From positions 4,118 to 68,117 of IMG/VR virus record IMGVR_UViG_3300030376_001752: DNA of 64,000 nt; one strand, 5' to 3'. Positions 17,501 to 44,727 of the stretch are shown one piece after another. This DNA is from a virus (Duplodnaviria; Caudoviricetes). The notes below the pieces were generated by a model that was not told the DNA's origin, did not search any database, and was given only the letters and a program-made list of their open reading frames with translations. A program made the position numbers and the translations under genes. Each line of letters opens with the position of its first letter. Position 1 is the stretch's first letter.

Positions 17501-20500
17501 AAAGAAACTTCCTAAAGCTTTAGGTGGACAAACAACAGAGTTTGCTACTGGTAGACAAGTATATGACTTTATATTAGATTATCACAAAAACATAAAGAAA
17601 GGTAGAATATCTAACCAAGCACAAAGAATGCTTGACATGTTTGAACCTGATGAGTTACAGAAAGATGATAAAGGTAATACTATAAATAGAAAAAGATCTA
17701 TTAATATAGAAAAAGAATCTAATCAAGAAATACTTAACCAACTTCCTAATGGTTTTAACGAGGCAACAGGTCAACAAGAAACTGAATTTATAAAAAGCAA
17801 ACAGTTTCAAGCTGCAAAAGCATTGATTGATAACGGCGCTTTTGATAGATTAATAGGTGCTAAGTTAGCAAGTGGTAGTAATATATTTGGAAGACCTAGA
17901 GAAGAGGTTATGGAAGAGATACGTGCTCAACTTGTAAGGCACTTAGAAAACTTTAACCCAGCAAAAAACAAAGATCTATTTGCTTATTTAAACTCTTACA
18001 TAGGTAGAAAAGTAGGTACTGTTACAACTAGAATAAAAAAGAGAAGAGTAAGAACTACGCCTTTAACTAAAGACATTAAAGGTGAAACAGTTGAAACACA
18101 GATAGCTGATATGGCTCCTGATCCAGAACAACAAATGATACTTGCTGAGGAACAAGCGGCTGCACTTATTAAATCAACTGAGCTTAAAATGGGTAAGAAA
18201 CTAGACCCAGATACTGTAGCTAAAGTTAAAAAACTTATAGTACCTATAATTAGAGATATGGATGTAAAGCTAACAGCTGATAAATCTATAAACGCTAAGA
18301 ACTCACCAATGATAAAGTATTTAAAAAATGCTTTAAAGAACTCTTTAGTATATGACGCTATGATTGCTGAGCTTGGTAAAGGTGAAGTTACAAAACAAAA
18401 GATACTTGAGTTTAAACAAGATGTTTTAAAAAATGCTACTACAACTTGGCTGCAAGGTAAAACACAGAAAAATGGTACGGTTAATGGAGGTATACCACAA
18501 GCTATAGATAAAGTTATAAAACTACAAGACGGTAGTGAAGTTAGAGTATCTTATCCTGATTGGGTTGGAGAAAAAATAGCTATAGAAAAAATGGGTACTG
18601 ATAACGCTGGTAGAACCGCGGGTCATGCCTTAGTATTTAGAAGTGAGCAAGAAGTAAGTGATGAAGCTTACATGTCTCAGTTTTACAAAGATGGCAAGCT
18701 AATAAGAAATAGAAAAGAATCTTTAGCAGAAGAAATGGCTAAGGAAATAGGTATAGAAATAATACTTGACGAACTTGTTAATAATCCTAAAGGTGAAATA
18801 GCACAAGCATTTGAACAAAATCAATTAGCAAAAGGTGTTATGAATGCTGTGCAAAAAATTGGTGAAGTATTTGTACAAGCAGACAGATCAGGTATAAAAA
18901 GATCTTTATCAGCAAACAAAGAAGTTGCTATCGCTAGATTTGAAAGACTAGCTATATTAGGTTACGAAGGTAACTTTAAATCTTTAGCAATGGAAAAAGA
19001 AATGCTGAGAGGAACTCCTTACGAGTTTGTTATAAAAATATATGAAGAAAACTTTGCACTTGATGCTGAAGCTTTAACTGGTTTTATTGATCCAATGAAA
19101 GCTTACGCTGAAACATTACCAGAAAGCGATCCTACCAAAAAATATATACAAGAGTTTTTAAACATGGATAAAGCTCAGAAAATAAAAGCTATAGCTAGTT
19201 TTTCAGAAGAATTAGCTAAAGTTATACCACCTGAGTTGTTTAAACTACCTAATCTTGGTTACGACTTTTTAGGTGTATTTGATAGAGTTATAAAACCTAA
19301 TTCACCTGAAGGGGTTAAAATTAAAAAAGCAGCTGACAGTGATGTTGATGGTGAAGTCCCTGCTTGGATGGAAGATATACTACCTATATTCAGCACAGGT
19401 GGTATTGTAGGTTCTATAGTAAACAAAATACAAAACAAAACATTTGCTAGTAAAGAAGAAGCACAGCAAGAGTTTGATAAACTATATGCTGAGAAAATAG
19501 AAAAAGCAAACATTGCTAACATTAAACTCTTTAACTATATTGTAGACGCTGCTACTAAGGTTGTTGCTAAAAACCCTAAGCTTATGCCTGGTTATTTAGC
19601 TTTGTTCCAAAGTAACACGGGGGATATAATAAAAGGTATGAGAGCTTTTGGCGTATTGCAAGATGTAGAAATACATGCTGAGATACAAGCTCCTTTTATT
19701 AGTAAAGATGGTACTAAAGGTTATAAATCAATAGACGCTACAAATAGAAAAGCTTATGATGCTGGAGATATACAAATAAATTATAACCACCCTTTATTTG
19801 CTAGAGTAAAAAAATATGTTGACGATCAAATTGCTGAACTACAAGAAGAACTAGCAAACACAACAGCTCCTAAAAAGAGAGAGAAGTTATTAAAAAGAAT
19901 AAATAAAGACAGAGATGAATTATATAGAGCTCTACTAAGACCTTACACAGAACATAAAAACCCTGCTTCAAATAAATTTGGTGATATAGCAAGAGACCAA
20001 ATGGTGATACTTAGCAAGATAATAGGTAAAGGTTTGACAGATTCTCAAATAGATGTCGCTATAAACGCTTATCAACTGCACAACGGTAAGCTTGCAGATA
20101 TTATATCTGATTTTACAATGACTATAAACACTTCTGTTATATCAAAGATACAAGATGATATACATAGTAAGACGAGTAGTTTAGGAGATGCTAGAGTTTT
20201 TGCTATTGAAAATCAATACGTACAAAATTTATATCCTATAAAAGGACAGGTTCCAGCTTTAAAAAGAGCTGACAATGTTTTAAAAGCAGATGTTGATCAG
20301 TTTGTTAAGATAATGGAGCTGCAAAATGCTATCAACACATCTAATAGCACTAAAAGAAGTTTAAGCCCTAGAGGTATTAGTGTTTATGATTTTGACGACA
20401 CACTAGCTTTTAGTAAAAGTCAAATAATAGTAACAATGCCTAATGGTAAGGTGACTAGAATTACACCTGCTAAGTTTGCTACTGATGCAACTAAACTAGA

Positions 20501-22961
20501 AAAGCAAGGTGCTCAATTTGATTTCAGCGAATTTAATGATGTTATAGATGGTAAACCTGGACCGTTAATACCTAGGTTAAGAAAAGCAATTGATAAGTTT
20601 GGTAATAAAAACATATATGTATTAACAGCTAGACCACAAGCGTCTGCACTAGCTATATATAAATTCTTAAAAGGCTTAGGTGTAGAAATACCTTTAGAAA
20701 ACATTACAGGTTTAGAAAACGGTAAGCCTAGCGCTAAAGCTAATTGGATGATTGGTAAGATAGCTAAAGGTTATAATGACTTCTACTTTGTTGATGATGC
20801 TATGAAAAACGTGTCAGCAGTTAAACAAGTTTTAGAAAACTATGATGTAAAAGGTAAAGTTCAACAAGCTGTTATAAAAAGAAAAAGAAGTCTTAACATC
20901 GACATCAACCAGATGATTGAAAGAAACACTGGTGTTGGTGCAGAGAAAACATACTCTAAGGTTGTAGCTAGAAAGAAAGGTGCTGGTAAATTCCAAAACC
21001 CATTTGTTCCTTACAGTGCTGAAGATTTTAGAGGTTTAACATCTTACACTTTATCTGGTAAAGGTAAACAAGGTGAGCAAGATCAACAGTTCTTTGAAGA
21101 CAATTTAATAAATCCTTACATAAGAGGAGTTGCTGCCATGGAAACGATTAGGCAAGCAATGAAAAACGAATATGATAGATTGTTAAAAGCAAACCCAGAG
21201 CTTAGAAAGAAAATAAACAAAGAGGTTCCTGAATTAGGATTTACACATGACCAGGTTATAAGGATATACTTATACAACAAAGCTGGATATGAAGTTCCTG
21301 GTATATCTAAAAGAGATTTAAAAGCTGCGGTTGATTTTGTTACTAAAAACGAAGACATAGAATTATTTGCTAATGAACTACTTTTATTAACAAAAGGTAA
21401 TCAATGGGTAAAACCTGATGAATTTTGGGATGTTGGTAGTTTATTAAAAGATCTTAACACGTTTAATGATGATGTAAATAGAAAAGAATATCTAGCTGAG
21501 TTTATAGAAAACGTTGACATTATGTTTGACGAAGCAACCTTAAATAAACTTGAAGCTATATATGGAACAAAATATAGAAAAGCTTTAGAGAATATAATAG
21601 CTAGAATGAAGTCTGGTAGTAATAGACCAAGTAAAATGGGTACTACAGAAACAAAATGGATGAATTGGTTAAATAATTCTGTTGGTTCTATAATGTTCTT
21701 TAACAGAAGATCTGCTTTGTTACAGATGTTATCATTTGCTAACTTTACAAACTGGTCTGATAATAATCCAATTGCGGCTGCTGCGGCTTTTGCTAACCAG
21801 CCTTTATATTGGAAAACATGGGTAAGAATATTTAACTCTGATAAATTAAAACAAAGACGTGGTGGTTTAAAATCAGATTTACAAGAACAAGAGATTGCTA
21901 ACGCTGCTAAAAACTCTAAAGGTAAACCTGAAGCTATTATAGCTTATTTATTGAAAATAGGTTTTACACCTACACAAATAGCAGATAGTATGGCTATTGC
22001 TACAGGTGGTGCTAGCTTTTTAATAAATAGAACTAAAACATATTTAAAACAAGGTTTATCACAAGAAGAAGCTGATGCTAAAGCTTTTGAAGATTTTAGT
22101 AAAATATCTGATGAGACTCAGCAGTCTGGTGATCCAATGCTTATATCATCTCAACAAGCTAGTCATTTAGGTAGGATAATACTAGCGTTCCAAAACACTC
22201 CTATGCAGTATACGAGATTAATAAAGAAAGCTGCACAAGATTTATACAATGGTAGAGGTGATGCTAAAACTAATATATCTAAAATATTATATTATGGATT
22301 TGTACAGAACTTAATATTTAACGGTTTACAACAAGCTTTATTCGCATTAACAGATCCGTTCTTTGATGATGATGAAGAAGAATATGAAAAAGAATTAGCA
22401 AAGAAAGAAGTAAAAATAATAAACGGTATGATTGATAGTATATTGAGAGGTACTGGTTTATACGGAGCTGTTGCTGTTGGTTTAAAAAATACATACAGAA
22501 CTTACATGAAGCAAGAGGAAAAAGGTTATAGAGCAGATCATGCTCACACTCTTATTGAGTTAGCCAACATTTCACCTCCTCTTGGATCTAAAATGAGAAA
22601 AGTTTACTCTTCAATTTTAGAATACAAATACAACAAAGCATTAATTAAAGAAAGAGGTTGGTCGTTAACGGCTGACGGTAGAGTAAACGTTGCTCCCAAC
22701 TATATGATACTAGCTAATCTTGTTTCTGCTGGATTTAACGTTCCTCTTGATAGAGCTATTATAGAGATTAACGGTATTTCAGAATCACTTGATAATAGAA
22801 ACAATGCAATGCAAAGAATAGCTTTACTACTAGGATTTAGAACTTGGGATGTAAATGTTAAAAATGAAGAAAATGATTTTATAGAAGCTTTCTATAAAGA
22901 ATTAAAAGAATTAGAAAAGAAGAAGAAAAAGAGGCACACACCACGTAAAAGAAAGAAATAA
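14553..22961 (+). CDS. Giant (2802 aa) ejection/polyvalent polyprotein: zincin peptidase, sigma-region-2-like domain, HAD phosphatase
   Basis: Gly-rich hydrophobic helices near both ends; HELLH (HExxH) at about 17214; sigma-like segment at about 17800-18170; HAD motifs DFDDT / LTAR / K / FVDD at 20370-20850; four KRS[L/I] motifs. Confidence 0.75.
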   Translation: MGYFNRKYYNTDNGIIDISELDENQQIKFFVNNPNAVEATELETREAGLTRPNSEIVSEENRLSKKMEQEQEEKFLYLKYGTPRQDDIEIKPRMYVGGKGDEVSREDFNSDTEWKAYQVWNGDLKREAVPLKTQVYQRVRTNDLDVGVQTSDYYYNRDKKTDFVDTHYDSKSLEEAGIDVANFQGYLESSGYRDEFDEYINDNSFDGNWISGQKELDIAKNRTLKGYLERYLQDENNRFTEKMFVDDYYHNQDKYKDYKDYFEAYEAFKTEQFGAKNGGGTVFDYEKLNAYSDVNYKNVKDRDALNRRNFIKHIDDVEQQGDVVGGGAGALEFFTSAIGGAWSGLDELSITLADWFWMDGVANRRRFIDQEQDLGDAESNAQYMLFRGKIGEIDGVQYGVGDDGSVYNITENRNVTNALTVNEIEEITQTAEKENWEDGYDWSARGSSNMSGHVIGNVIFQIFGTKGAGYLRNVASLKYLAAANGFKNVAQYEKYLRQIKLNPERLKQFGAANKGTFGKKLPFDPRIVDATTFQTFYGATTGYERTLNAAVNAGIPRDEAEKLARTASGQMALLYGVTGPINPRLGGMKWLDKQYSKIFGNAQLNNVIKAYKQGGLKGANDQIKKGIKSFIPNNPGQMHKAFWSEGAREVLQENIQQGGEFLLVNRSLNEAAGQEFLKQDYTLRDFIETSVLSLAAGGLVGGFSSASTSTINSKKAQLQDMWSLSNNMKQTKELLGGAVENDMLTQEEADDLYKSIQSIGKAKLPAWMINTPEEYIEAANVQNALEVLKRKSKKSGDESSNKDQIAALENNLKDIVKKAASAEINKEIDFVGKIVGKKNIKVFNTPEEIKKAGFSSEMFTDGWFESNGVIYINKEMAAANQAVSVASHELLHKILKAEFKGNPEIQKVVNEFKEILKEKGVWSAIERREALYKADGRADLDGVDADEYLTMFSDALAKNEIPFEALEEAQWKQIGRSIMTALKKKLPKALGGQTTEFATGRQVYDFILDYHKNIKKGRISNQAQRMLDMFEPDELQKDDKGNTINRKRSINIEKESNQEILNQLPNGFNEATGQQETEFIKSKQFQAAKALIDNGAFDRLIGAKLASGSNIFGRPREEVMEEIRAQLVRHLENFNPAKNKDLFAYLNSYIGRKVGTVTTRIKKRRVRTTPLTKDIKGETVETQIADMAPDPEQQMILAEEQAAALIKSTELKMGKKLDPDTVAKVKKLIVPIIRDMDVKLTADKSINAKNSPMIKYLKNALKNSLVYDAMIAELGKGEVTKQKILEFKQDVLKNATTTWLQGKTQKNGTVNGGIPQAIDKVIKLQDGSEVRVSYPDWVGEKIAIEKMGTDNAGRTAGHALVFRSEQEVSDEAYMSQFYKDGKLIRNRKESLAEEMAKEIGIEIILDELVNNPKGEIAQAFEQNQLAKGVMNAVQKIGEVFVQADRSGIKRSLSANKEVAIARFERLAILGYEGNFKSLAMEKEMLRGTPYEFVIKIYEENFALDAEALTGFIDPMKAYAETLPESDPTKKYIQEFLNMDKAQKIKAIASFSEELAKVIPPELFKLPNLGYDFLGVFDRVIKPNSPEGVKIKKAADSDVDGEVPAWMEDILPIFSTGGIVGSIVNKIQNKTFASKEEAQQEFDKLYAEKIEKANIANIKLFNYIVDAATKVVAKNPKLMPGYLALFQSNTGDIIKGMRAFGVLQDVEIHAEIQAPFISKDGTKGYKSIDATNRKAYDAGDIQINYNHPLFARVKKYVDDQIAELQEELANTTAPKKREKLLKRINKDRDELYRALLRPYTEHKNPASNKFGDIARDQMVILSKIIGKGLTDSQIDVAINAYQLHNGKLADIISDFTMTINTSVISKIQDDIHSKTSSLGDARVFAIENQYVQNLYPIKGQVPALKRADNVLKADVDQFVKIMELQNAINTSNSTKRSLSPRGISVYDFDDTLAFSKSQIIVTMPNGKVTRITPAKFATDATKLEKQGAQFDFSEFNDVIDGKPGPLIPRLRKAIDKFGNKNIYVLTARPQASALAIYKFLKGLGVEIPLENITGLENGKPSAKANWMIGKIAKGYNDFYFVDDAMKNVSAVKQVLENYDVKGKVQQAVIKRKRSLNIDINQMIERNTGVGAEKTYSKVVARKKGAGKFQNPFVPYSAEDFRGLTSYTLSGKGKQGEQDQQFFEDNLINPYIRGVAAMETIRQAMKNEYDRLLKANPELRKKINKEVPELGFTHDQVIRIYLYNKAGYEVPGISKRDLKAAVDFVTKNEDIELFANELLLLTKGNQWVKPDEFWDVGSLLKDLNTFNDDVNRKEYLAEFIENVDIMFDEATLNKLEAIYGTKYRKALENIIARMKSGSNRPSKMGTTETKWMNWLNNSVGSIMFFNRRSALLQMLSFANFTNWSDNNPIAAAAAFANQPLYWKTWVRIFNSDKLKQRRGGLKSDLQEQEIANAAKNSKGKPEAIIAYLLKIGFTPTQIADSMAIATGGASFLINRTKTYLKQGLSQEEADAKAFEDFSKISDETQQSGDPMLISSQQASHLGRIILAFQNTPMQYTRLIKKAAQDLYNGRGDAKTNISKILYYGFVQNLIFNGLQQALFALTDPFFDDDEEEYEKELAKKEVKIINGMIDSILRGTGLYGAVAVGLKNTYRTYMKQEEKGYRADHAHTLIELANISPPLGSKMRKVYSSILEYKYNKALIKERGWSLTADGRVNVAPNYMILANLVSAGFNVPLDRAIIEINGISESLDNRNNAMQRIALLLGFRTWDVNVKNEENDFIEAFYKELKELEKKKKKRHTPRKRKK

Positions 22962-39388: not shown

Positions 39389-39420
39389 TATTATCCAACT
39401 TCGTTCGTATTTATATTGTA
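39389..39420 (-). promoter_or_regulatory. Early promoter motif copy 1
   Basis: TACAATATAAATACGAA-N8-GATAATA. Confidence 0.8.
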
Positions 39421-39914
39421 TTTGTAAGAATGTCAACAATTTTCTGTGCGTGACTTCTAACTCTGTTATAATTAGCTATATATCTAGTTTCGCCATTAGC
39501 AAAGTCAGTATAATCCATATCTTTCATGTATTTAGATATAATCTTCTCAGGTTTAAGTACAAACACGTTTTTACTACTATAATTATCATAGCAACTAACC
39601 CATCTGTCTTGTTTACCTGTAAATATAATATAAGTATATTGATGGTCAATATTAGCGTGATCCGCATATAAGTAGCAACTGTCATAGTACATATCATGAA
39701 CTAACTTAGCAGCTAAACGGCTACCGTCACTAGTTGGGTTAGCGTGTAACCAATTAGCGATCTGTATACCTTGCCACTCAGGATAACCGTCATGATGTAA
39801 GTACATATTTACATAGCTTTTGTCACTGAAAAAACTAGGGTTTTCTGCAAAACCAAGCTCTGATTCTTCAGCGTGTCGTCTATCTACGACCATAGTTAAA
39901 TTTCTTGTAGCCAT
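39411..39914 (-). CDS. Hypothetical early protein (YxHxDGYP motif)
   Basis: 167 aa; 'MYLHHDGYPEWQG'. Confidence 0.7.
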   Translation of the reverse strand: MATRNLTMVVDRRHAEESELGFAENPSFFSDKSYVNMYLHHDGYPEWQGIQIANWLHANPTSDGSRLAAKLVHDMYYDSCYLYADHANIDHQYTYIIFTGKQDRWVSCYDNYSSKNVFVLKPEKIISKYMKDMDYTDFANGETRYIANYNRVRSHAQKIVDILTNTI

Positions 39915-39915
39915 A

Positions 39916-40104
39916 TTATTTGGTTTCTATGTAGCCTGCTTCGATTAAATCTTTTAATGTACGCCCGAACCAACCTTGCAGACCGTTATAAAGTTCGTGG
40001 TCGTATATATATTGCCATGCAGCTAAAACTTCGTCGCTGTCATTTGCTTCTACGAAACCTTCAGCTATGCCAACAGCCTCGTAACTAGTCATTTTTCTTC
40101 TCAT
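39916..40104 (-). CDS. Hypothetical early protein
   Basis: 'AAWQYIYDHELYNGLQGWFGRTLKDLIEAG'; start moved to 40104. Confidence 0.65.
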   Translation of the reverse strand: MRRKMTSYEAVGIAEGFVEANDSDEVLAAWQYIYDHELYNGLQGWFGRTLKDLIEAGYIETK

Positions 40105-40105
40105 A

Positions 40106-40417
40106 TTATTGTTCTTTAAATAACGCATAGCCAAGCTTTGCATAGTTAATAATGTCAGCAAACCTAGATTCTATTGGTTCTGCTTCAGTTAAATCAGGAT
40201 TTTTTACGTGAGCAGCAACAGAACTACATTGCTTATCAAAGAATATAAGCCATACAGTTAAAGGATCTACACCAGCTTTAGCTGCAGTAGCCTTGAAGTT
40301 AGCCAACACGTCGTCACTTCCATTAGTATACTCTGGACCCTTGTGGTTCATAGTAGATTGAGCTAGTATATCTAACTCGTTAGTTAATTTATTAAATTCT
40401 ATCGTAGTCATAATCAT
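40106..40417 (-). CDS. All-alpha NTP-PPase-like / nucleotide-modification-associated (DUF1599-like) protein
   Basis: 'KGPEY...DVLANF...DK...IESRFADIINY'. Confidence 0.55.
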   Translation of the reverse strand: MIMTTIEFNKLTNELDILAQSTMNHKGPEYTNGSDDVLANFKATAAKAGVDPLTVWLIFFDKQCSSVAAHVKNPDLTEAEPIESRFADIINYAKLGYALFKEQ

Positions 40418-40425
40418 TTTTTTAG

Positions 40426-40499
40426 ATGCGCAGGAAGGATTCGAACCTTCGACCTCGAGCTTATGAGGCTCGCGAGCTGACCAACTGCTCCACCGCGCA
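40426..40499 (-). tRNA. tRNA with CAT anticodon (Met-like, atypical identity elements)
   Basis: Full cloverleaf: TGCGCGG/CTGCGCA acceptor, GAGC/GCTC D-stem, CGAGC-CTCATAA-GCTCG, GAAGG-TTCGAAT-CCTTC; U73; no encoded CCA. Confidence 0.9.
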
Positions 40500-40511
40500 A
40501 TGTGTATAGCA

Positions 40512-40769
40512 TTAATCTAGCAATACCATATAACCTGCTGAGTCCGTACTTCTGAACCAGTCTAAACCTTTGTAGAAGTCTTTAATTATCTTCTCATCAG
40601 TATTACCCATTTCAAAAGTCATTTGTGCACCCATTATAAAGTCATACATTGCTAGTTGTGCTGCTGTTAATTTATATTCTTCTCCGCTGAACGGATTTGT
40701 TACTGTATCACCTTCAGTATATACAGCTCCATTAAACCATTTTGGTAATTTGTTTTTATCTTTATTCAT
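40512..40769 (-). CDS. Hypothetical early protein
   Basis: 85-aa ORF in the early gene run. Confidence 0.65.
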   Translation of the reverse strand: MNKDKNKLPKWFNGAVYTEGDTVTNPFSGEEYKLTAAQLAMYDFIMGAQMTFEMGNTDEKIIKDFYKGLDWFRSTDSAGYMVLLD

Positions 40770-40995
40770 CTTTATTTAGGAATTTATCACCGTACATAAC
40801 ATCATGTGCAGTAAGTTGGTATGTATATAAGTCAGAATAAGAGCATAGATCACTAACGTCTGACACTGTTAGCTCTGACCATATGTTACTAGCCATAAGC
40901 TTGTAAGATAATCTCTTTGCTGAGTCATACTTCAAAGCATTAATCTCAAGAGTTGTTTGAATGTTTGGTCTTAGTAGTTCGTATAAGTTTTTCAT
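40762..40995 (-). CDS. Hypothetical early protein
   Basis: 77 aa, directly downstream of promoter copy 2. Confidence 0.65.
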   Translation of the reverse strand: MKNLYELLRPNIQTTLEINALKYDSAKRLSYKLMASNIWSELTVSDVSDLCSYSDLYTYQLTAHDVMYGDKFLNKDE

Positions 40996-41013
40996 ATTGT
41001 ATTTATTTAATTA

Positions 41014-41045
41014 TATTATCTAACTTGATTCGTATTTATATTGTA
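41014..41045 (-). promoter_or_regulatory. Early promoter motif copy 2
   Basis: TACAATATAAATACGAA-TCAAGTTA-GATAATA. Confidence 0.8.
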
Positions 41046-41120
41046 ATATCAAGGGTGACACCATGCACAGTGTCCAAGCTTTCTGAGGTGTTAACCGTCC
41101 TTCTTGTTTTACCCTGTTAG

Positions 41121-41167
41121 AGAACATGGTGGGATTCGAACCCACACTTTAGTACCGTAGCATGTTC
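41121..41167 (-). ncRNA. tRNA minihelix 1 (acceptor stem + T-arm, no D or anticodon arm)
   Basis: GAACATG-(15 nt)-GTGGG TTCGAAT CCCAC-CATGTTC-T, followed by CTAA. Confidence 0.65.
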
Positions 41168-41261
41168 TACCATAATTACTACTTGTCACTACGACTGGCT
41201 TTGTACAACTGATACCTCAAGGAAGCCAAGGCGTCGATTTACTGTTAAAGTAATAAATTAG

Positions 41262-41422
41262 TGGACGTGGCAGGATTCGAACCTGCGTTACCGGGTTGCG
41301 GTTGGATTCAACTAAACTGAGGCTGCCTCAATTAGCAACTCTTGCAGCAAGATTAACACCGTTGCTTTGAGTGTAAGTTTAGTTTACTGTTACCGATTTC
41401 CGGTCAATACCTCATCACGCCC
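41262..41422 (-). ncRNA. ssrA: Miniature tmRNA-like RNA (161 nt)
   Basis: GGGCGTG/CACGTCC acceptor with G3.U70 and A73; D-loop analogue ATGAGGTATTGAC; CCGG/CCGG helix; TAAC linker; T-arm GCAGG-TTCGAAT-CCTGC. Confidence 0.75.
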
Positions 41423-41532
41423 ATAAAGTAGCAGTTGTAGACTGGTAGTTAACTAGTATTGTCATTTATCTACAATTTCTGTTTTGCGAACCATAGTAGG
41501 AATTACCGCTAACGTGACCAGTATGCCGCCAC

Positions 41533-41784
41533 TTAGTTTCCAAACTCTATACCGCTTCTAGATGTCACCATCCATTCACAGTCTTGTAACTTGTGTCCTG
41601 CTCCGTATAGAAACGCTTCGCAAGATTCACAGTCTGGATTCCACTTATTTTCTTTGTTACATAAAGCGCTAATGTCATATCTATATACCTTACCAACTGT
41701 AAAGTCTAGTACAAATACATACTTAGCTACTGTATATTCTTTTTCTTCTTGCATTTCTGCATATGCTTTTTTTGAATCACTCAT
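41533..41784 (-). CDS. Hypothetical early protein
   Basis: 83-aa ORF. Confidence 0.6.
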   Translation of the reverse strand: MSDSKKAYAEMQEEKEYTVAKYVFVLDFTVGKVYRYDISALCNKENKWNPDCESCEAFLYGAGHKLQDCEWMVTSRSGIEFGN

Positions 41785-41797
41785 AATTATTATATTA

Positions 41798-42007
41798 TTA
41801 TCTTAAACAAGTACCGTAACCTCTACGAGCGGTTAGCTTACGTATTCTAGCTGCTTGGGCCTTTGGCATTATCTGAATAGTATTGCCGGTTTTGTGGTAT
41901 GTGATTGCCACACAGCCATAAGCTTCCGTACTGCTACAGTTAACACATTCTTTGTAACCGAGTGCTAACCGCTGCGGAGGTATTATATTATTACATTTAC
42001 ACTTCAT
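41798..42007 (-). CDS. DksA/TraR-like C4 zinc-finger protein
   Basis: 'CKCNNIIPPQRLALGYKECVNC' matches the C..C...IP..RL.....C..C pattern; start moved to 42007. Confidence 0.6.
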   Translation of the reverse strand: MKCKCNNIIPPQRLALGYKECVNCSSTEAYGCVAITYHKTGNTIQIMPKAQAARIRKLTARRGYGTCLR

Positions 42008-42201
42008 TATCCTCTTACCCAGGTTAAACCTTTGTGATTGAACCACTCGCTTATACCTTCTTTGTCAGTGTCAGCATTATATATAAAGCCGAAGTTGTTA
42101 GGTATACTACATATATCGTAAGCAATCCACTTTTGATTGTTGAGTAGTAATTGTTTAGGGTCTTTTTTAGAGTATTTGATAGTTTTGATAGTGTCTGTCA
42201 T
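42007..42201 (-). CDS. Hypothetical early protein
   Basis: 64 aa, downstream of promoter copy 3. Confidence 0.6.
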   Translation of the reverse strand: MTDTIKTIKYSKKDPKQLLLNNQKWIAYDICSIPNNFGFIYNADTDKEGISEWFNHKGLTWVRG

Positions 42202-42238
42202 AATTGTAAAGTTTATATTATTATTTTAAATTCATTTA

Positions 42239-42270
42239 TATTATCTGATTGTATTCGTATTTATATTGTA
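42239..42270 (-). promoter_or_regulatory. Early promoter motif copy 3
   Basis: TACAATATAAATACGAA-TACAATCA-GATAATA. Confidence 0.8.
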
Positions 42271-42273
42271 AAA

Positions 42274-42744
42274 CTATTCTTCATCTTCATCTTCTTCTAC
42301 AAAATATTCACCTGAATCTAATAACTCGTCTTTCTTTTCTGACTCTTTTTCTTCGTATACATCTGTCCACCACTGTTCTAATTCGTGGTTGAAGTCATAT
42401 TCCATATCGTCCCATAAGTGAGGTTCTACCCACACATCAGAACCAGATACTAATTCGTTTATCGCTTGTTCTGACCACTCTGGATAATCTTCATATTGAT
42501 AACCATCTTGTGAAACATAAGGTTTCTCGTCGTGAGTACACCAATATATATCATAACTATCAGCTGTTGACTCGCTATATATTTTTAACATGTGTCTACT
42601 ATCATTCCAGTCACTAGTGTTATCTAACTTACCACCATATTCTGTGTTGATATATTCTAGAAGCCAAGTCGCATCTGGCTCTTCCATGATGCCATCTTCT
42701 TCTAATTTTTCCTTTAAAATTTCGTCCGTTAATAATTCGCTCAT
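42274..42744 (-). CDS. Highly acidic early protein (possible DNA mimic)
   Basis: 156 aa, very rich in Asp/Glu and aromatic residues. Confidence 0.6.
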   Translation of the reverse strand: MSELLTDEILKEKLEEDGIMEEPDATWLLEYINTEYGGKLDNTSDWNDSRHMLKIYSESTADSYDIYWCTHDEKPYVSQDGYQYEDYPEWSEQAINELVSGSDVWVEPHLWDDMEYDFNHELEQWWTDVYEEKESEKKDELLDSGEYFVEEDEDEE

Positions 42745-43148
42745 TATGCATAGTTTTTAATATAATACTCTAACATATAATTTAAACGAGCAAGGCCAGA
42801 GTATATTAATGCTCTTGCTGTTTGTGTATAGTGTTTAGTAACTAAACCATTTTCAGTTAAATAAGTCCACCTAACATTTTGCTTATATTGTTTATTAAGC
42901 TGATAGTTTGATGAGCAACTATTACAGTTTCTTACATAACCACTCTTATATACTGCTAATCTTAGCTTGTATGATGATGGTTTAAGTTTACCGTTATAGT
43001 AAGCGTATCTAGCAGGCACTGGAAATTCAAATTCTCTTGTACCATTTTTCGCTTGTCTTTGTGTAGTTACTTCTTTGATTCCATATTCTACTAGTAATCT
43101 TCTTGCGTAAGCATTTTCTAATGCCTCTTGTTCTTGTTTCCAGTTCAT
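42744..43148 (-). CDS. Hypothetical early protein
   Basis: 134-aa basic ORF. Confidence 0.65.
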   Translation of the reverse strand: MNWKQEQEALENAYARRLLVEYGIKEVTTQRQAKNGTREFEFPVPARYAYYNGKLKPSSYKLRLAVYKSGYVRNCNSCSSNYQLNKQYKQNVRWTYLTENGLVTKHYTQTARALIYSGLARLNYMLEYYIKNYA

Positions 43149-43149
43149 A

Positions 43150-43356
43150 TTAATGATTTTTAAGTAAGTGATTAGCGATCTTCTCAGCAGTGAGTGACAT
43201 GAGATAACTATGAGCTTCGTTATATTCTAAGGGTGTAGAGCTAAGTAACTCGTCAATCTCACCACTGAGTGTCCAATCGCATATTTTATATATTTCTTTT
43301 ATTGCTTCTTTGCTAGCTTTGTCTGCTAGTCTATCAAATTCTTTAGTCTTGCTCAT
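43150..43356 (-). CDS. Hypothetical early protein
   Basis: Start moved to MSKTKE at 43356. Confidence 0.6.
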   Translation of the reverse strand: MSKTKEFDRLADKASKEAIKEIYKICDWTLSGEIDELLSSTPLEYNEAHSYLMSLTAEKIANHLLKNH

Positions 43357-43579
43357 AATATTCTCTTTTAAATGGTGAGTTCTCATCACCTGGTGCATAC
43401 TTATTCCAGTGGTCTACTAGTTCTTTAGTCCAACCGCCTTGAGCTTTAACTTTTTCGTTAATTAATTCCATTTGTCTTAACCCACCTTTCCAATATCTGT
43501 GGTCATCTGCCATCATATAAGTGAAGTCGTGATGTTTAATCATATCTTTTAGTGATAAGTCGTCGAAGTATTTAGCCAT
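43343..43579 (-). CDS. Hypothetical early protein
   Basis: 'HDFTYMMADDHRYWKGG' motif. Confidence 0.65.
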   Translation of the reverse strand: MAKYFDDLSLKDMIKHHDFTYMMADDHRYWKGGLRQMELINEKVKAQGGWTKELVDHWNKYAPGDENSPFKREYYEQD

Positions 43580-43581
43580 AG

Positions 43582-43701
43582 TTAATTAGTTTTATTGTAT
43601 ATTTCTAACACTTGTTGTCTTTGATTTTTAGTTAATAAAAATGGAGACTTATTAAATAGTTGTTTAGAAATGATTATTAATTGAGTTTGATTGTATAACA
43701 T
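43582..43701 (-). CDS. 39-aa early peptide (not in ORF track)
   Basis: MLYNQTQLIIISKQLFNKSPFLLTKNQRQQVLEIYNKTN; ATG 5 nt after promoter copy 4. Confidence 0.5.
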   Translation of the reverse strand: MLYNQTQLIIISKQLFNKSPFLLTKNQRQQVLEIYNKTN

Positions 43702-43706
43702 ATATA

Positions 43707-43738
43707 TATTATCTATATTAATTCGTATTTATATTGTA
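43707..43738 (-). promoter_or_regulatory. Early promoter motif copy 4
   Basis: TACAATATAAATACGAA-TTAATATA-GATAATA. Confidence 0.8.
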
Positions 43739-43845
43739 ATTCTAACACGGACAAAATATCCATAGTGTTATATAAAAGATATAGAATATAAACATTAGAA
43801 ATATAAAGTTAATTACTATATCAGTTATTTTATTTTTGTTCTTGT

Positions 43846-43980
43846 TTACCATCCGCCAAATGTTATAGTTGGATTATTAAATGCTAAGTGATAAGAAATC
43901 ATTAGTATTCCTGATAGTGCTAAAGTTGCTAGCGAAATTAGTATTGCATTGATTGCAAAGTGTTGAAACTTTCTTTTCAT
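43846..43980 (-). CDS. 44-aa single-TM peptide (not in ORF track)
   Basis: MKRKFQHFAINAILISLATLALSGILMISYHLAFNNPTITFGGW. Confidence 0.55.
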   Translation of the reverse strand: MKRKFQHFAINAILISLATLALSGILMISYHLAFNNPTITFGGW

Positions 43981-44001
43981 AGTTATAAATTTAGATATTA
44001 G

Positions 44002-44042
44002 TTGTCACGAGTGGAATCGAACCACTATTAACCATTGTGACA
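44002..44042 (-). ncRNA. tRNA minihelix 2
   Basis: TGTCAC(A)-(9 nt)-AGTGG TTCGATT CCACT-(C)GTGACA-A, followed by CTAA. Confidence 0.6.
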
Positions 44043-44138
44043 TTTGCTTGTTCGCATTTTTTATAAGTCGCTAAACAACGCGCAACTACGACTTTAGCCA
44101 CCTCAGCCTAATCAGCACTTCAGCTGAGGTATTTTTGA

Positions 44139-44366
44139 CTACGCTTGTACTACTTCGCGTGCAATTACAGGAATGTTATTTGAAGCAGTATAAGATTTGT
44201 ATTTGATAAAACATGGCATAGTTTCAAGTTTTTCTTTCATAACTTCATACACTTTATCGTGATTGTAAGTGACAGTTTTGCCATTTTTGAAGTTAACAGT
44301 AATGTTTTGATTTTTGCCAATTAGTGATTTTCTTATTACAAATCTTTTTGAAATTAAATTGCTCAT
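44139..44366 (-). CDS. Hypothetical early protein
   Basis: 75 aa, downstream of promoter copy 5. Confidence 0.7.
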   Translation of the reverse strand: MSNLISKRFVIRKSLIGKNQNITVNFKNGKTVTYNHDKVYEVMKEKLETMPCFIKYKSYTASNNIPVIAREVVQA

Positions 44367-44413
44367 AGTAAATTGATTTTAGTTATTATTATTATTATTA
44401 TTTCTTATATTAT

Positions 44414-44445
44414 TATTATCTAATGTGTTTCGTATTTATGTTGTA
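44414..44445 (-). promoter_or_regulatory. Early promoter motif copy 5
   Basis: TACAACATAAATACGAA-ACACATTA-GATAATA. Confidence 0.8.
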
Positions 44446-44520
44446 AAAGTAGATAATTTGTTTATATTATATTTTTTAGTGTGTAGTATTGCGCACACTC
44501 TCACAATTTCTAAATATTTA

Positions 44521-44673
44521 TTATAATTTTTCAACAGTGAAATGAGTAATGTTTGAGAAATTAATATCAATGTCAATTAGGAATTGAAGTAATTCGTTGT
44601 CGATTATATTAGTCTCGTGAGTGAGATATAATGGGTCGTCGTCGCGGAAGTTAAATGTAAATTCGTAAGTCAT
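44521..44673 (-). CDS. 50-aa acidic early peptide (not in ORF track)
   Basis: MTYEFTFNFRDDDPLYLTHETNIIDNELLQFLIDIDINFSNITHFTVEKL; first ORF after promoter copy 6. Confidence 0.5.
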   Translation of the reverse strand: MTYEFTFNFRDDDPLYLTHETNIIDNELLQFLIDIDINFSNITHFTVEKL

Positions 44674-44695
44674 ATCGTTTTATTTAGTATATATA

Positions 44696-44727
44696 TATTA
44701 TCTAACGCCATTCGTATTTAGGTGGTA
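44696..44727 (-). promoter_or_regulatory. Early promoter motif copy 6
   Basis: TACCACCTAAATACGAA-TGGCGTTA-GATAATA. Confidence 0.75.

What the first reader, a model, noticed from the sequence alone, without database searches (positions are those of the whole stretch)
41262..41422. 161-nt miniature tmRNA: intact alanyl-tRNA-like domain, no pseudoknot ring
Seen: G3.U70 and A73 alanine identity, D-loop analogue ending GAC, P2-like CCGG/CCGG helix, TAAC linker and T-arm. The interior is nested hairpins (AACTAAACT/AGTTTAGTT, AGCAAC/GTTGCT, TGAGG/CCTCA). Established: standard tmRNAs are about 350-400 nt with pseudoknots and a tag ending in a degron such as LAA; phage tmRNAs are known, but this one is under half size. 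One frame reads ...SNGVNLAARVAN-stop, an LAA extended by RVAN, and is largely base-paired. Inference: either an SmpB sponge that disables host trans-translation or a ribosome-rescue RNA that adds a non-degrading tag.
Basis: partly seen in the sequence, partly recalled or inferred. Interest (0 to 1): 0.85.

Follow-up and report, generated by a model that had tools for sequence, protein, structure and literature searches.

The report
Phage mini-tmRNA with non-coding cap
A marine phage carries a real 161-base gene for the alanine-accepting, tRNA-like end of the bacterial ribosome-rescue RNA (tmRNA). The tag-coding ring is replaced by a lineage-specific bundle of hairpins, so it is a large-insert member of an already known class of phage "tag-less" tmRNA mimics, not a working miniature tmRNA.

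Summary
On the minus strand, 41422..41262 encodes a 161-nt RNA with a complete tmRNA-type tRNA-like domain: G3·U70, A73, a stem-less D-loop ending GAC, the H2 connector helix and the T-arm. ARAGORN misses it. Rfam tmRNA matches end to end at 27.5 bits, below the cut-off of 47. The published TLD-only tmRNA of mycobacteriophage DS6A is also below cut-off, at 43.2 bits.

The RNA belongs to a large family in uncultivated phages: at least 120 IMG/VR contigs, with sizes of 65-192 nt. Its own sub-family has 34 distinct sequences of 96-182 nt. They share one scaffold, and the tip of H2 carries unrelated, interchangeable hairpin modules.

The "SNGVNLAARVAN" frame is not supported:
- Frames of that length occur in 89% of shuffles.
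- The LAA codons form the stem of a small hairpin.
- Relatives carry other inserts.
- The family shows no ORF enrichment.
- Variants of this insert differ by +21 nt and -4 nt at one loop.

The most likely role is a tag-less tmRNA mimic that engages host AlaRS and SmpB and interferes with trans-translation. This is inferred, not shown. This scan has reported the class many times on other DNA. New here are the large modular cap and an early "RNA island" of four conserved structured RNAs.

The parts
41262..41422 (-). Mature-length mini-tmRNA gene (161 nt, G1 to discriminator A)
   Evidence: Sequence read. Rfam RF00023 full-span hit at 27.5 bits. Fold z = -3.1. Scaffold covariation.
41416..41422 (-). 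Acceptor stem, 5' strand GGGCGUG (G3 pairs with U70)
   Evidence: In the sub-family, pair 3:70 is G·U in 33 of 34 sequences. Pairs 2:71, 4:69 and 6:67 show compensatory changes.
41403..41415 (-). Stem-less D-loop analogue AUGAGGUAUUGAC. Its last two bases, A19 and C20, open helix H2 and overlap the next part.
   Evidence: It aligns to the tmRNA consensus GAucuGGaUUCGAC. A8, G12, G13, U14, U16-C20 are invariant in 34 relatives.
41392..41404 (-). Connector helix H2, 5' strand (ACCGG, loop AAAU, CGGU)
   Evidence: MFE fold. Pairs counted (helix 2).
41385..41391 (-). Invariant internal-loop strand AACAGUA
   Evidence: Invariant in 34 sub-family sequences.
41310..41384 (-). Lineage-specific non-coding cap at the H2 tip (75 nt). 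It has a closing stem AACUAAACU/AGUUUAGUU, hairpin AGCAAC/GUUGCU enclosing UCUUG-CUG-CAAGA, and hairpin UGAGG-CAG-CCUCA. It sits where the pseudoknot/tag ring of a full tmRNA would be.
   Evidence: Fold. Other sub-family members carry unrelated inserts here, and all four closing-stem pairs covary. Only L222 (identical) and L243 (same insert plus a 21-nt nested module) share it.
41328..41366 (-).
   Evidence: statistics; L243, +21 nt; X3 contigs lack 4 nt at 41353-41360.
41303..41309 (-). Conserved internal-loop strand GAAUCCA
   Evidence: G114-U117 and A120 are invariant in the 34 sequences; C118 and C119 are at least 90% conserved.
41290..41302 (-). Connector helix H2, 3' strand (ACCG, loop CAAC, CCGGU)
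41270..41289 (-). Linker AAC plus T-arm GCAGG-UUCGAAU-CCUGC
   Evidence: T-stem covariation across the wider family.
41262..41269 (-). Acceptor stem 3' strand CACGUCC plus discriminator A
41259..41261 (-). 3' trailer CUA in place of CCA. The same trailer follows the phage's tRNA-Met, its tRNA-like minihelix and the DS6A TLD RNA.
   Evidence: repeat family D3.
42239..42270 (-). Nearest upstream copy of a six-fold repeated promoter-like element. It is the probable start of the early transcription unit that ends with the RNA island.
Evidence: Repeat families D1 and D2. Promoter function is inferred.

Best explanation
This is a phage-encoded, tag-less tmRNA mimic. It keeps the complete tRNA-like domain (TLD) and the H2 connector helix of tmRNA. 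The pseudoknot/tag ring is replaced by a 75-nt, lineage-specific, non-coding hairpin cap.

Proposed mechanism (inferred):
1. The RNA is transcribed at the end of a small early operon.
2. Host RNase P and a 3' tRNA-processing nuclease cut it out like a tRNA.
3. Its CUA trailer is replaced by CCA.
4. Host AlaRS recognises it through G3·U70 and A73.
5. Host SmpB, and then EF-Tu, bind it at the D-loop/T-loop elbow.

Because it has no usable resume codon or tag frame, it competes with host tmRNA for SmpB and for stalled ribosomes. This blunts ssrA tagging and trans-translation during infection. H2 points away from the ribosome like a long variable arm, so its tip tolerates insertions. That would explain why the cap is hypervariable and built from exchangeable hairpin modules.

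Shown: the anatomy, family membership, structural conservation, and the lack of evidence for coding. Inferred: processing, charging, SmpB binding and the effect on the host.
For: Identity and anatomy:
- All TLD hallmarks are present and align to both ends of Rfam tmRNA.
- The published DS6A TLD-only tmRNA behaves the same way in the same search: full-span hit, 43.2 bits, below the cut-off, and also ending A-CUA.
- The genome is a complete 68-kb virus record with no SmpB gene and no other tmRNA piece.

Family and structure:
- The 3' TLD motif is found in at least 120 IMG/VR contigs. These give 92 distinct mini forms of 65-192 nt.
- An H2-like closing helix is present in 94 of 121 distinct sequences, against 13% after shuffling the interior. 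It has 36 different helix sequences.
- In the sub-family scaffold, 90.9% of cells are paired against 31-42% for slid controls, with 10 compensatory pairs.
- Position 3 is G in 108 of 121 sequences, although A would give a Watson-Crick pair with the fixed U70. This points to selection for alanine identity.
- The D-loop analogue is invariant. Literature ties D-loop/T-loop contacts to SmpB binding, and G3·U70 plus A73 to AlaRS (PMC3968760).

No tag:
- and the X3 variants all argue against a tag frame.

Precedent for the mechanism:
- A DS6A-like TLD molecule strongly inhibits tmRNA in E. coli, perhaps by titrating SmpB (Mao et al. 2009, as reported in PMC4131195 and PMC11915505).

Maturation and context:
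- A CUA trailer also follows the phage's bona fide tRNA-Met.
- A metatranscriptome contig of the neighbouring minihelix RNA (from a relative, 4 mismatches in 43 nt) ends U-C-C-A plus poly(A), where the genome reads U-C-U-A.
- The gene lies among small early genes upstream of the replication module, between two copies of the repeated promoter-like element.
Against: - There is no direct evidence of expression. The one RNA run laid on the region covered the flanks but not 41259-41422.
- Charging, SmpB binding and any effect on trans-translation are untested.
- The host is unknown.
- A pure decoy would not need alanine identity, since Mao et al. found inhibition 'whether or not chargeable' (PMC4131195). 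Yet G3·U70 is strongly kept.
- A pure decoy also does not explain why hairpin modules are shared between different scaffolds and also occur free-standing next to the gene.
- The element is accessory. Only 6 of 19 related GroEL-encoding phage contigs with enough upstream sequence carry one at the syntenic place, one of them with A3-U70.
- It fails the Rfam gathering score (27.5 against 47).
Confidence: 0.5

Rival explanations
1. Tag-less rescue rather than blockade. The alanyl-RNA enters stalled ribosomes with SmpB and EF-Tu and accepts the nascent chain. Because no message follows, the peptidyl-RNA drops off or is hydrolysed. Ribosomes are freed, and truncated (phage) proteins escape the ssrA degron.
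For: G3·U70 is strongly conserved where A-U would pair as well. That suggests charging matters, which a simple SmpB sponge would not need. CDS-less tmRNAs in jakobid mitochondria and some plastids are thought to be retained for a function (PMC3985003, PMC11915505). All the anatomy cited for the best explanation applies equally.
Against: There is no known release route for a peptidyl-TLD. No peptidyl-tRNA hydrolase or ArfB-like gene was seen among the 30 proteins of the window scanned, though the scan was not exhaustive. The published experiment reports inhibition, not rescue.
Confidence: 0.17
2. The tRNA-like domain is mainly a scaffold or processing handle. The functional part is the exchangeable hairpin module(s) at the H2 tip, acting as protein-binding decoys or regulators. 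The TLD gives them stability and precise ends.
For: Inserts are hypervariable while the scaffold is near-invariant. The same modules recur on different scaffolds and nested inside one another. Examples are ACCAGGGAAUCCCAUGGU, ACCGCGGCGAAAGCAAAGGU and CGGAAGUGUAUUACA. Some also occur free-standing just upstream of the gene in other phages. The gene sits in an island of other conserved structured RNAs.
Against: Many family members are TLD-only (65-80 nt) with no payload, as is DS6A. A mere scaffold would not need G3·U70 or the invariant SmpB-type D-loop. The window's own insert was found in only one other scaffold (L243). No module matched an Rfam family.
Confidence: 0.15
3. A genuinely functional miniature tmRNA. 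The cap holds a resume codon and a short tag frame (SNGVNLAARVAN, or AARVAN from GCU75, or the overlapping ATVLILLQELLIEAASV frame) that is added to stalled proteins without a ClpXP degron.
For: The cap sits topologically where the tag ring belongs. Three of the four E. coli pseudoknots are dispensable in vitro, and plastid tmRNAs have few or none (PMC3985003). L243 keeps both frames open despite a 21-nt insertion. An internal [LVI]AA occurs in only 2.8% of shuffles.
Against: Frame length is ordinary (89% of shuffles). LAA is not C-terminal, and its codons are the stem of the hairpin UCUUG-CUG-CAAGA. Keeping the frame in L243 has a prior of about one in four, and the inserted piece is a recurrent structural hairpin. 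X3 contigs lack 4 nt inside the frame. 60 family members with interiors of at least 45 nt show fewer Ala-start ORFs than shuffles (4.5 against 6.2 codons), and none has a degron-like end. No sub-family relative with another insert has a comparable frame.
Confidence: 0.05
4. A non-functional remnant: a decaying tmRNA or tRNA-Ala pseudogene, or an attP-type copy of the 3' end of a host ssrA gene.
For: tmRNA genes are frequent integration sites (PMC11915505). The element is accessory among related phages.
Against: Both acceptor strands are present and covary. The scaffold is near-invariant across 34 distinct sequences while the inserts turn over. The fold is more stable than shuffles. Relatives conserve the gene's position. 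No integrase was seen in the proteins scanned.
Confidence: 0.03

Closest known systems
CDS-less 'TLD-only' tmRNA of mycobacteriophage DS6A (tmRNA Website tmID 11587; Mao et al. 2009 via PMC4131195; PMC11915505)
   Same: Both are phage-encoded, with a complete alanine-type TLD (G3·U70, A73, stem-less D-loop ending GAC, T-arm), a short H2 helix and no tag frame. Both give a full-span but sub-threshold Rfam tmRNA hit, and both genes end A-CUA instead of A-CCA.
   Different: DS6A is 83 nt with a small H2 cap, in a temperate actinophage. This RNA is 161 nt, with a two-segment H2, an invariant internal loop (AACAGUA/GAAUCCA) and a 75-nt three-hairpin cap. It sits in a marine phage with no integrase among the proteins scanned, distantly related to Flavobacteriia phages. 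Only short conserved TLD motifs are shared at the sequence level.
Standard one-piece bacterial tmRNA (Rfam RF00023)
   Same: The TLD and the start of H2, and the topology: the insert sits at the tip of H2, where the ring is attached.
   Different: There is no pseudoknot ring (116-nt interior against about 326 in the model), no supported tag frame and no encoded CCA. The score is 27.5 against the gathering score of 47.
CDS-less organellar tmRNAs (jakobid mitochondria; about 65-nt forms in Mallomonadaceae plastids; PMC3985003, PMC11915505)
   Same: A TLD retained without tag frame or pseudoknots. The function without tagging is unresolved.
   Different: Those are cellular or organellar genes working with their own imported SmpB. 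This one is viral and must use the host's SmpB. Some organellar forms are two-piece; this one is one-piece.
Other phage mini-tmRNA genes reported earlier in this scan (e.g. e1-5847578, 110 nt; e1-3408686, 74 nt)
   Same: The same family by anatomy, and ARAGORN and Rfam behave the same way.
   Different: This one is at the large end of the size range. It documents the modular, exchangeable H2-tip inserts and the surrounding RNA island.

Membership tests
tmRNA (standard one-piece, RF00023) | Acceptor stem with G3·U70 and discriminator A73 (alanine identity) | tested here: met
   GGGCGUG/CACGUCC followed by A. G·U in 33 of 34 sub-family sequences.
tmRNA (standard one-piece, RF00023) | tRNA-like T-arm, and a reduced D-loop without a stem that carries GG and ends GAC | tested here: met
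   Aligned to the model consensus at posterior 0.8-1.0. Invariant in relatives.
tmRNA (standard one-piece, RF00023) | Long connector helix H2 leaving the TLD | tested here: met
   Two helical segments in the MFE fold. 80.7% of cells paired, with compensatory changes.
tmRNA (standard one-piece, RF00023) | Pseudoknot ring (typically PK1-PK4) | tested here: not met
   The interior is 116 nt against 326 in the model, and the fold is fully nested. A single small pseudoknot cannot be excluded.
tmRNA (standard one-piece, RF00023) | Conserved tag reading frame with resume codon and stop | tested here: not met
   The frame is statistically ordinary, absent from relatives, and variable by +21 and -4 nt.
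tmRNA (standard one-piece, RF00023) | Reaches Rfam's gathering score | tested here: not met
   27.5 bits against 47.
Phage CDS-less / TLD-only tmRNA (DS6A type) | Phage-encoded complete TLD without a tag CDS | tested here: met
   Virus record, CheckV 100%. TLD. No supported CDS.
Phage CDS-less / TLD-only tmRNA (DS6A type) | [quoted passage not shown] | tested here: not met
   161 nt against 83 nt for DS6A. The excess is an extended H2 plus a 75-nt cap.
Phage CDS-less / TLD-only tmRNA (DS6A type) | Binds SmpB and inhibits host tmRNA | not testable with these tools
   Known only from Mao et al. 2009, as cited in PMC4131195 and PMC11915505. The phage has no SmpB of its own.
Two-piece (permuted) tmRNA | Acceptor piece and coding piece made from a circularly permuted gene | tested here: not met
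   The 5' and 3' acceptor strands are in one gene in standard order. Apart from a 17-nt T-arm match in the neighbouring minihelix, no other tmRNA hit exists in the whole genome.
Canonical tRNA-Ala | D-stem and anticodon arm | tested here: not met
   ARAGORN calls nothing here. No D-stem or anticodon arm appears in the fold. tmRNA outscores tRNA within the Rfam clan.

The most novel reading that the evidence does not exclude
The H2 tip of these phage TLD RNAs may be a docking site for a pool of exchangeable structured-RNA modules. The gene may be one unit of an early-expressed 'RNA island': a leader element, the mini-tmRNA, a 70-nt conserved RNA and a 47-nt CCA-tailed tRNA minihelix. On this reading, marine phages field a modular RNA toolkit aimed at the host's tRNA and translation quality-control machinery, with the TLD delivering the modules to SmpB or to ribosomes.
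Probability: 0.15. Interest if true: 0.75.

Novelty: new variant of a known kind. Interest (0 to 1): 0.42.

Why it matters
Phage interference with trans-translation has been argued from a single example, DS6A. This locus belongs to a family that is abundant in marine phage sequences and invisible to ARAGORN and to Rfam at its gathering score, so phage genomes are systematically under-annotated for it.

The large-insert forms show that the tip of H2 freely accepts and exchanges hairpin modules while the SmpB/AlaRS-facing parts stay fixed. That is a natural structure-function map of the TLD. It also raises a concrete question: decoy only, or decoy plus payload?

The strong retention of G3·U70 offers a testable handle on whether charging matters. 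For this particular finding, the practical message is a correction. It is not a record-small working tmRNA, and the tag-like frame is a by-product of hairpin sequence.

Tried and rejected
- ARAGORN on the whole window found only tRNA-Met. Rfam at gathering threshold also found only tRNA-Met.
- BLAST against 50,697 GenBank phage records. The 2-kb region matched only through tRNA-Met. The 164-nt element matched only T-arm-sized pieces of about 22-33 nt, many in annotated tRNAs. No cultured close relative was found.
- The first IMG/VR pattern, with a fixed D-loop and a 105-135 nt gap, found nothing.
- The pattern GTGATNAGGTATTGACCG also hit coding sequences (L203-L205, L207-L211), which are chance matches.
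- Searches for the window's insert core gave one chance hit in a CDS (L212) and no hit for the 3' half. In IMG/VR the insert is unique to this record.
- The genome-contig scan with the acceptor/T-arm motif returned tmRNA-like ends from many unrelated phyla, so it gave no host inference.
- The host is therefore unassigned. The only hint is about 40% GroEL identity to Flavobacterium, Cellulophaga and Maribacter phages.
- The sigma-70 promoter and terminator scan found nothing useful on the minus strand: 6 promoter-like sites against 6.0 expected, all on the plus strand.
- RNA evidence for the element itself: the metatranscriptome run X15 had contigs on 41120-41248 and 41441-41533 but none on 41259-41422. 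Contigs cannot show absence.
- A contig joint in run X1, skipping 41045-41422, ends exactly at G1 of the gene. It starts in the repeated promoter-like element, comes from one contig at 85% likeness, and 'between' is not known. It is not interpreted.
- Mao et al. 2009 is not in the library and is cited only through papers that describe it.
- Rfam on a 188-nt relative (L095) matched only the TLD/H2. The SCARNA14 hit at E = 0.16 was dismissed as chance.

Full report
**What is there**

The element lies on the minus strand. Read 41422 to 41262, it is a 161-nt RNA. In order, it contains:
- acceptor strand GGGCGUG;
- an unpaired stretch AUGAGGUAUUGAC;
- helix ACCGG/CCGGU, an internal loop, then helix CGGU/ACCG;
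- a second internal loop, AACAGUA opposite GAAUCCA;
- a 75-nt cap;
- the linker AAC;
- the T-arm GCAGG-UUCGAAU-CCUGC;
- acceptor strand CACGUCC and a discriminator A.

Pair 3:70 is G·U. The gene continues CUA, not CCA.

ARAGORN reports nothing here, and Rfam at gathering threshold reports nothing. With permissive thresholds, the tmRNA model RF00023 aligns from its first to its last position. It matches the TLD on both sides and deletes 326 model positions against 116 nt here, scoring 27.5 bits (cut-off 47) with E = 1e-8. The fold is fully nested at -52.6 kcal/mol, with z = -3.1 against dinucleotide shuffles.

**Genome context**

The window is part of a 68,117-bp IMG/VR virus record that CheckV rates complete. 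It has 34% GC.

The minus-strand block downstream of the RNA encodes an ATP-dependent DNA ligase, a sigma factor, Erf, an exonuclease, primase-helicase, thymidylate synthase, MazG and ribonucleotide reductase. A GroEL gene lies 4.3 kb away on the other strand. The nearest cultured relatives of that GroEL are Flavobacterium, Maribacter and Cellulophaga phages at about 40% identity. A marine Bacteroidota host is therefore possible but not shown.

The phage has no SmpB gene. It has no other tmRNA piece apart from a 17-nt T-arm match in the neighbouring minihelix.

A promoter-like element is repeated six times on the minus strand, a lead from note e1-5895386 that I confirmed as repeat families D1 and D2. 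Copies lie at 42239-42270 and at 41014-41045. The RNA gene therefore appears to lie at the distal end of a short early transcription unit, after three small ORFs.

**It belongs to a large family**

Relatives of the GroEL gene gave 80 loci. Of the 19 with at least 6.5 kb of upstream sequence, six carry a TLD RNA at the syntenic place, one of them with A3-U70. Their interiors differ, giving total lengths of 73 to 138 nt.

After pairing each hit with its 5' acceptor strand, I obtained 92 distinct mini forms of 65-192 nt and 11 full-length tmRNAs of 246-433 nt.

Across 121 distinct mini sequences:
- An H2-like helix closes the interior in 94, against 13% when interiors are shuffled. It uses 36 different helix sequences.
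- Position 3 is G in 108 and A in 8, although A would make a Watson-Crick pair with the U fixed by my search pattern.
- In 40 short forms, the free positions of the acceptor and T stems change only in compensatory fashion.

The published precedent is the TLD-only tmRNA of mycobacteriophage DS6A. I located it at JN698994 28478-28560. It gives the same kind of full-span, sub-threshold Rfam hit (43.2 bits) and also ends A-CUA.

This scan had already reported the class many times on other DNA: 169 notes matched my word search, including a 110-nt form.

**The window's own sub-family**

A scaffold pattern found 54 metagenome contigs, a few of them chance hits in coding sequence. With the IMG/VR members, this gives 34 distinct sequences of 96-182 nt.

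The first 38 and last 48 positions are almost invariant. This includes the D-loop analogue and the two internal-loop strands.

On a structure that I specified, 90.9% of pair cells are canonical, against 31-42% for partners slid by 1-3 columns. Ten pairs show changes on both sides. These include all four pairs of the stem that closes the variable cap.

Between the two internal-loop strands, the sequences are unrelated hairpins. They are built from recurring modules such as ACCAGGGAAUCCCAUGGU, ACCGCGGCGAAAGCAAAGGU, GAACUGGUGAGGGAUCGUUAUGAACUCAGGAAU, or a block ending CGGAAGUGUAUUACA. These modules also occur in other TLD sub-families. In some phages they stand free just upstream of the gene.

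The window's cap recurs only twice. L222 is identical and may be the same phage. L243 has a different H2/acceptor scaffold, and there GGUGU in one hairpin loop is replaced by 26 nt containing the ACCAGGGAAUCCCAUGGU module.

**Is there a tag?**

The frame ...SNGVNLAARVAN-stop exists, as does an overlapping frame ATVLILLQELLIEAASV-stop. Several tests argue against coding:
- 89% of shuffles of the 116-nt interior contain a stop-terminated frame of at least 16 codons, and 36% contain two frames as long as those seen.
- An internal [LVI]AA is rarer, at 2.8% of shuffles. Here, however, it is not C-terminal, so it is no ClpXP-type degron. Its codons CUU GCU GCA are one arm and the loop of the small hairpin UCUUG-CUG-CAAGA.
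- Among 60 distinct family members with interiors of at least 45 nt, the longest Ala-initiated, stop-terminated frame averages 4.5 codons, against 6.2 in shuffles. None ends like a degron.
- In another sub-family (L047, L102, L162), a stretch that reads like a tag (ASDNASAAA...) varies by compensatory changes in a hairpin stem, GUGC/GCAC to GUAC/GUAC to GUAC/GUGC. That is RNA-level selection, not protein-level.
- The loop at RNA positions 63-70 is an indel hot spot. L243 has +21 nt there, which keeps the frame. I estimate that outcome at about one in four by chance. Contigs of DNA run X3 lack 4 nt there, which breaks the frame. Those contigs are short and only about 90% alike, so this point is weak.

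Taken together, nothing supports a tag, and the family-wide evidence argues against one. I put the functional mini-tmRNA reading at about 5%.

**Mechanism**

Shown:
- an intact, conserved TLD with alanine identity;
- a conserved, SmpB-type, stem-less D-loop;
- a covarying H2;
- a permissive, hypervariable H2 tip;
- a phage genome without SmpB.

Established from the literature:
- G3·U70 and A73 suffice for AlaRS recognition.
- SmpB binds the TLD elbow and needs the D-loop/T-loop interaction.
- All known tmRNA partners except protein S1 bind the TLD.
- H2 projects like a long variable arm (PMC3968760, PMC3985003).
- A DS6A-like TLD molecule strongly inhibits tmRNA in E. coli, 'perhaps acting by titrating SmpB' (PMC4131195; also PMC11915505).

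Inferred: the RNA is excised like a tRNA, receives CCA, is charged, and competes with host tmRNA for SmpB and stalled ribosomes.

Two observations bear on maturation. First, the phage's own tRNA-Met gene and the neighbouring minihelix also end N73-CUA. Second, a metatranscriptome contig matching a relative of the neighbouring minihelix ends ...U-C, then a non-templated C, then 23 A, where the genome reads U-C-U-A. A CCA-tailed RNA captured with a poly(A) tail would look exactly like this. It is a single 67-nt contig.

Two facts do not fit a pure sponge. Alanine identity is retained, and modules are exchanged between scaffolds. I therefore keep tag-less rescue (0.17) and scaffold-plus-payload (0.15) as live rivals.

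**Comparison and novelty**

By function and anatomy, this is a member of the phage CDS-less tmRNA class typified by DS6A.

It fails as a standard tmRNA on three tested defining features: the pseudoknot ring, the tag frame and the Rfam cut-off. It departs from DS6A in size and in its elaborate, modular H2 extension. I class it as a new variant of a known kind.

A specialist would not be surprised by a phage TLD RNA. The abundance of the family in marine phages, the modular caps and the surrounding RNA island are the parts worth following up.

**The RNA island**

The 540-bp non-coding stretch 40996-41532 is packed with conserved structured RNA on the minus strand:
- a leader element immediately 5' of the gene, with compensatory stem changes;
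- the mini-tmRNA;
- a 70-nt element with an invariant core and a closing stem that has seven compensatory pairs;
- a 47-nt 'armless' tRNA-like minihelix with covarying acceptor and T stems in nine variants.

None of them matches an Rfam family at E up to 10.

Noticed in passing
window 41121-41167 (-): A 47-nt 'armless' tRNA-like minihelix: acceptor GAACAUG/CAUGUUC, the conserved 15-nt linker CUACGGUACUAAAGU, a canonical T-arm, U73 and then CUA. Nine sequence variants in relatives show compensatory changes in both stems. It has no alanine identity (3:70 is A-U or G-C). The linker looks like a TLD D-loop plus linker with H2 deleted. A metatranscriptome contig from a relative (4 mismatches in 43 nt) ends at 41120 and is followed by a non-templated C and 23 A, i.e. 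CCA plus poly(A).
   Followed up: partly
window ~41180-41256 (-): A conserved structured RNA of about 70 nt between the mini-tmRNA and the minihelix. Its core is invariant (UAACAGUAAAUCGACGCCUUGGCUUCC...AAGCCAGUCGUAGUGACA). Its closing stem has seven pairs with compensatory change in 12 sequences. No Rfam match at E up to 10. In L113 it lies 1.7 kb from the mini-tmRNA, so it is an independent unit. RNA-run contigs cover 41136-41248.
   Followed up: partly
window ~41432-41481 (-): A conserved leader element just 5' of the mini-tmRNA, present in at least 13 distinct loci. Its stem varies in compensatory fashion (UUGUAGA/GUCUACAA, GUGUGGA/GUCCACA, GAGCGGA/GUCCGC) around the invariant GAUAAAUGACAAUACUAG. 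It may be a processing signal or a separate small RNA.
   Followed up: partly
window 39389-44727 (-), six sites: Six copies of a promoter-like element (minus strand TTACAATATAAATACGAA-N8-GATAATA), each ahead of small early genes (families D1 and D2). It partitions the early region into short units.
   Followed up: partly
window 41000-41520 (-): The pentamer AACAG recurs on the 5' side of four stems: in the leader, in the mini-tmRNA internal loop, in the 70-nt element and after the minihelix. By my own rough base-composition estimate, about 0.7 occurrences would be expected. It may be a protein-binding or processing motif.
   Followed up: no
window 40425-40499 (-); 41259-41261; 41118-41120: All three tRNA-type genes of this phage end N73-CUA rather than CCA (family D3). 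So do 133 of 135 family members, where the pattern partly forced it, and the DS6A TLD RNA, where nothing forced it.
   Followed up: partly
L230:1167-1276 (-); L074:2705-2842 (-); L104/L199: A few family members have A3-U70, sometimes with A2-U71 (acceptor GAACGUG/CACGUUC or GGACGUG). They have lost alanine identity while keeping the rest of the scaffold. The GAAC acceptor resembles that of the 47-nt minihelix.
   Followed up: no
window 14553-22961 (+): A 2802-aa ORF with no PHROG match, in a 68-kb phage that also has 1477-aa and 1728-aa ORFs. It may be a giant virion protein.
   Followed up: no
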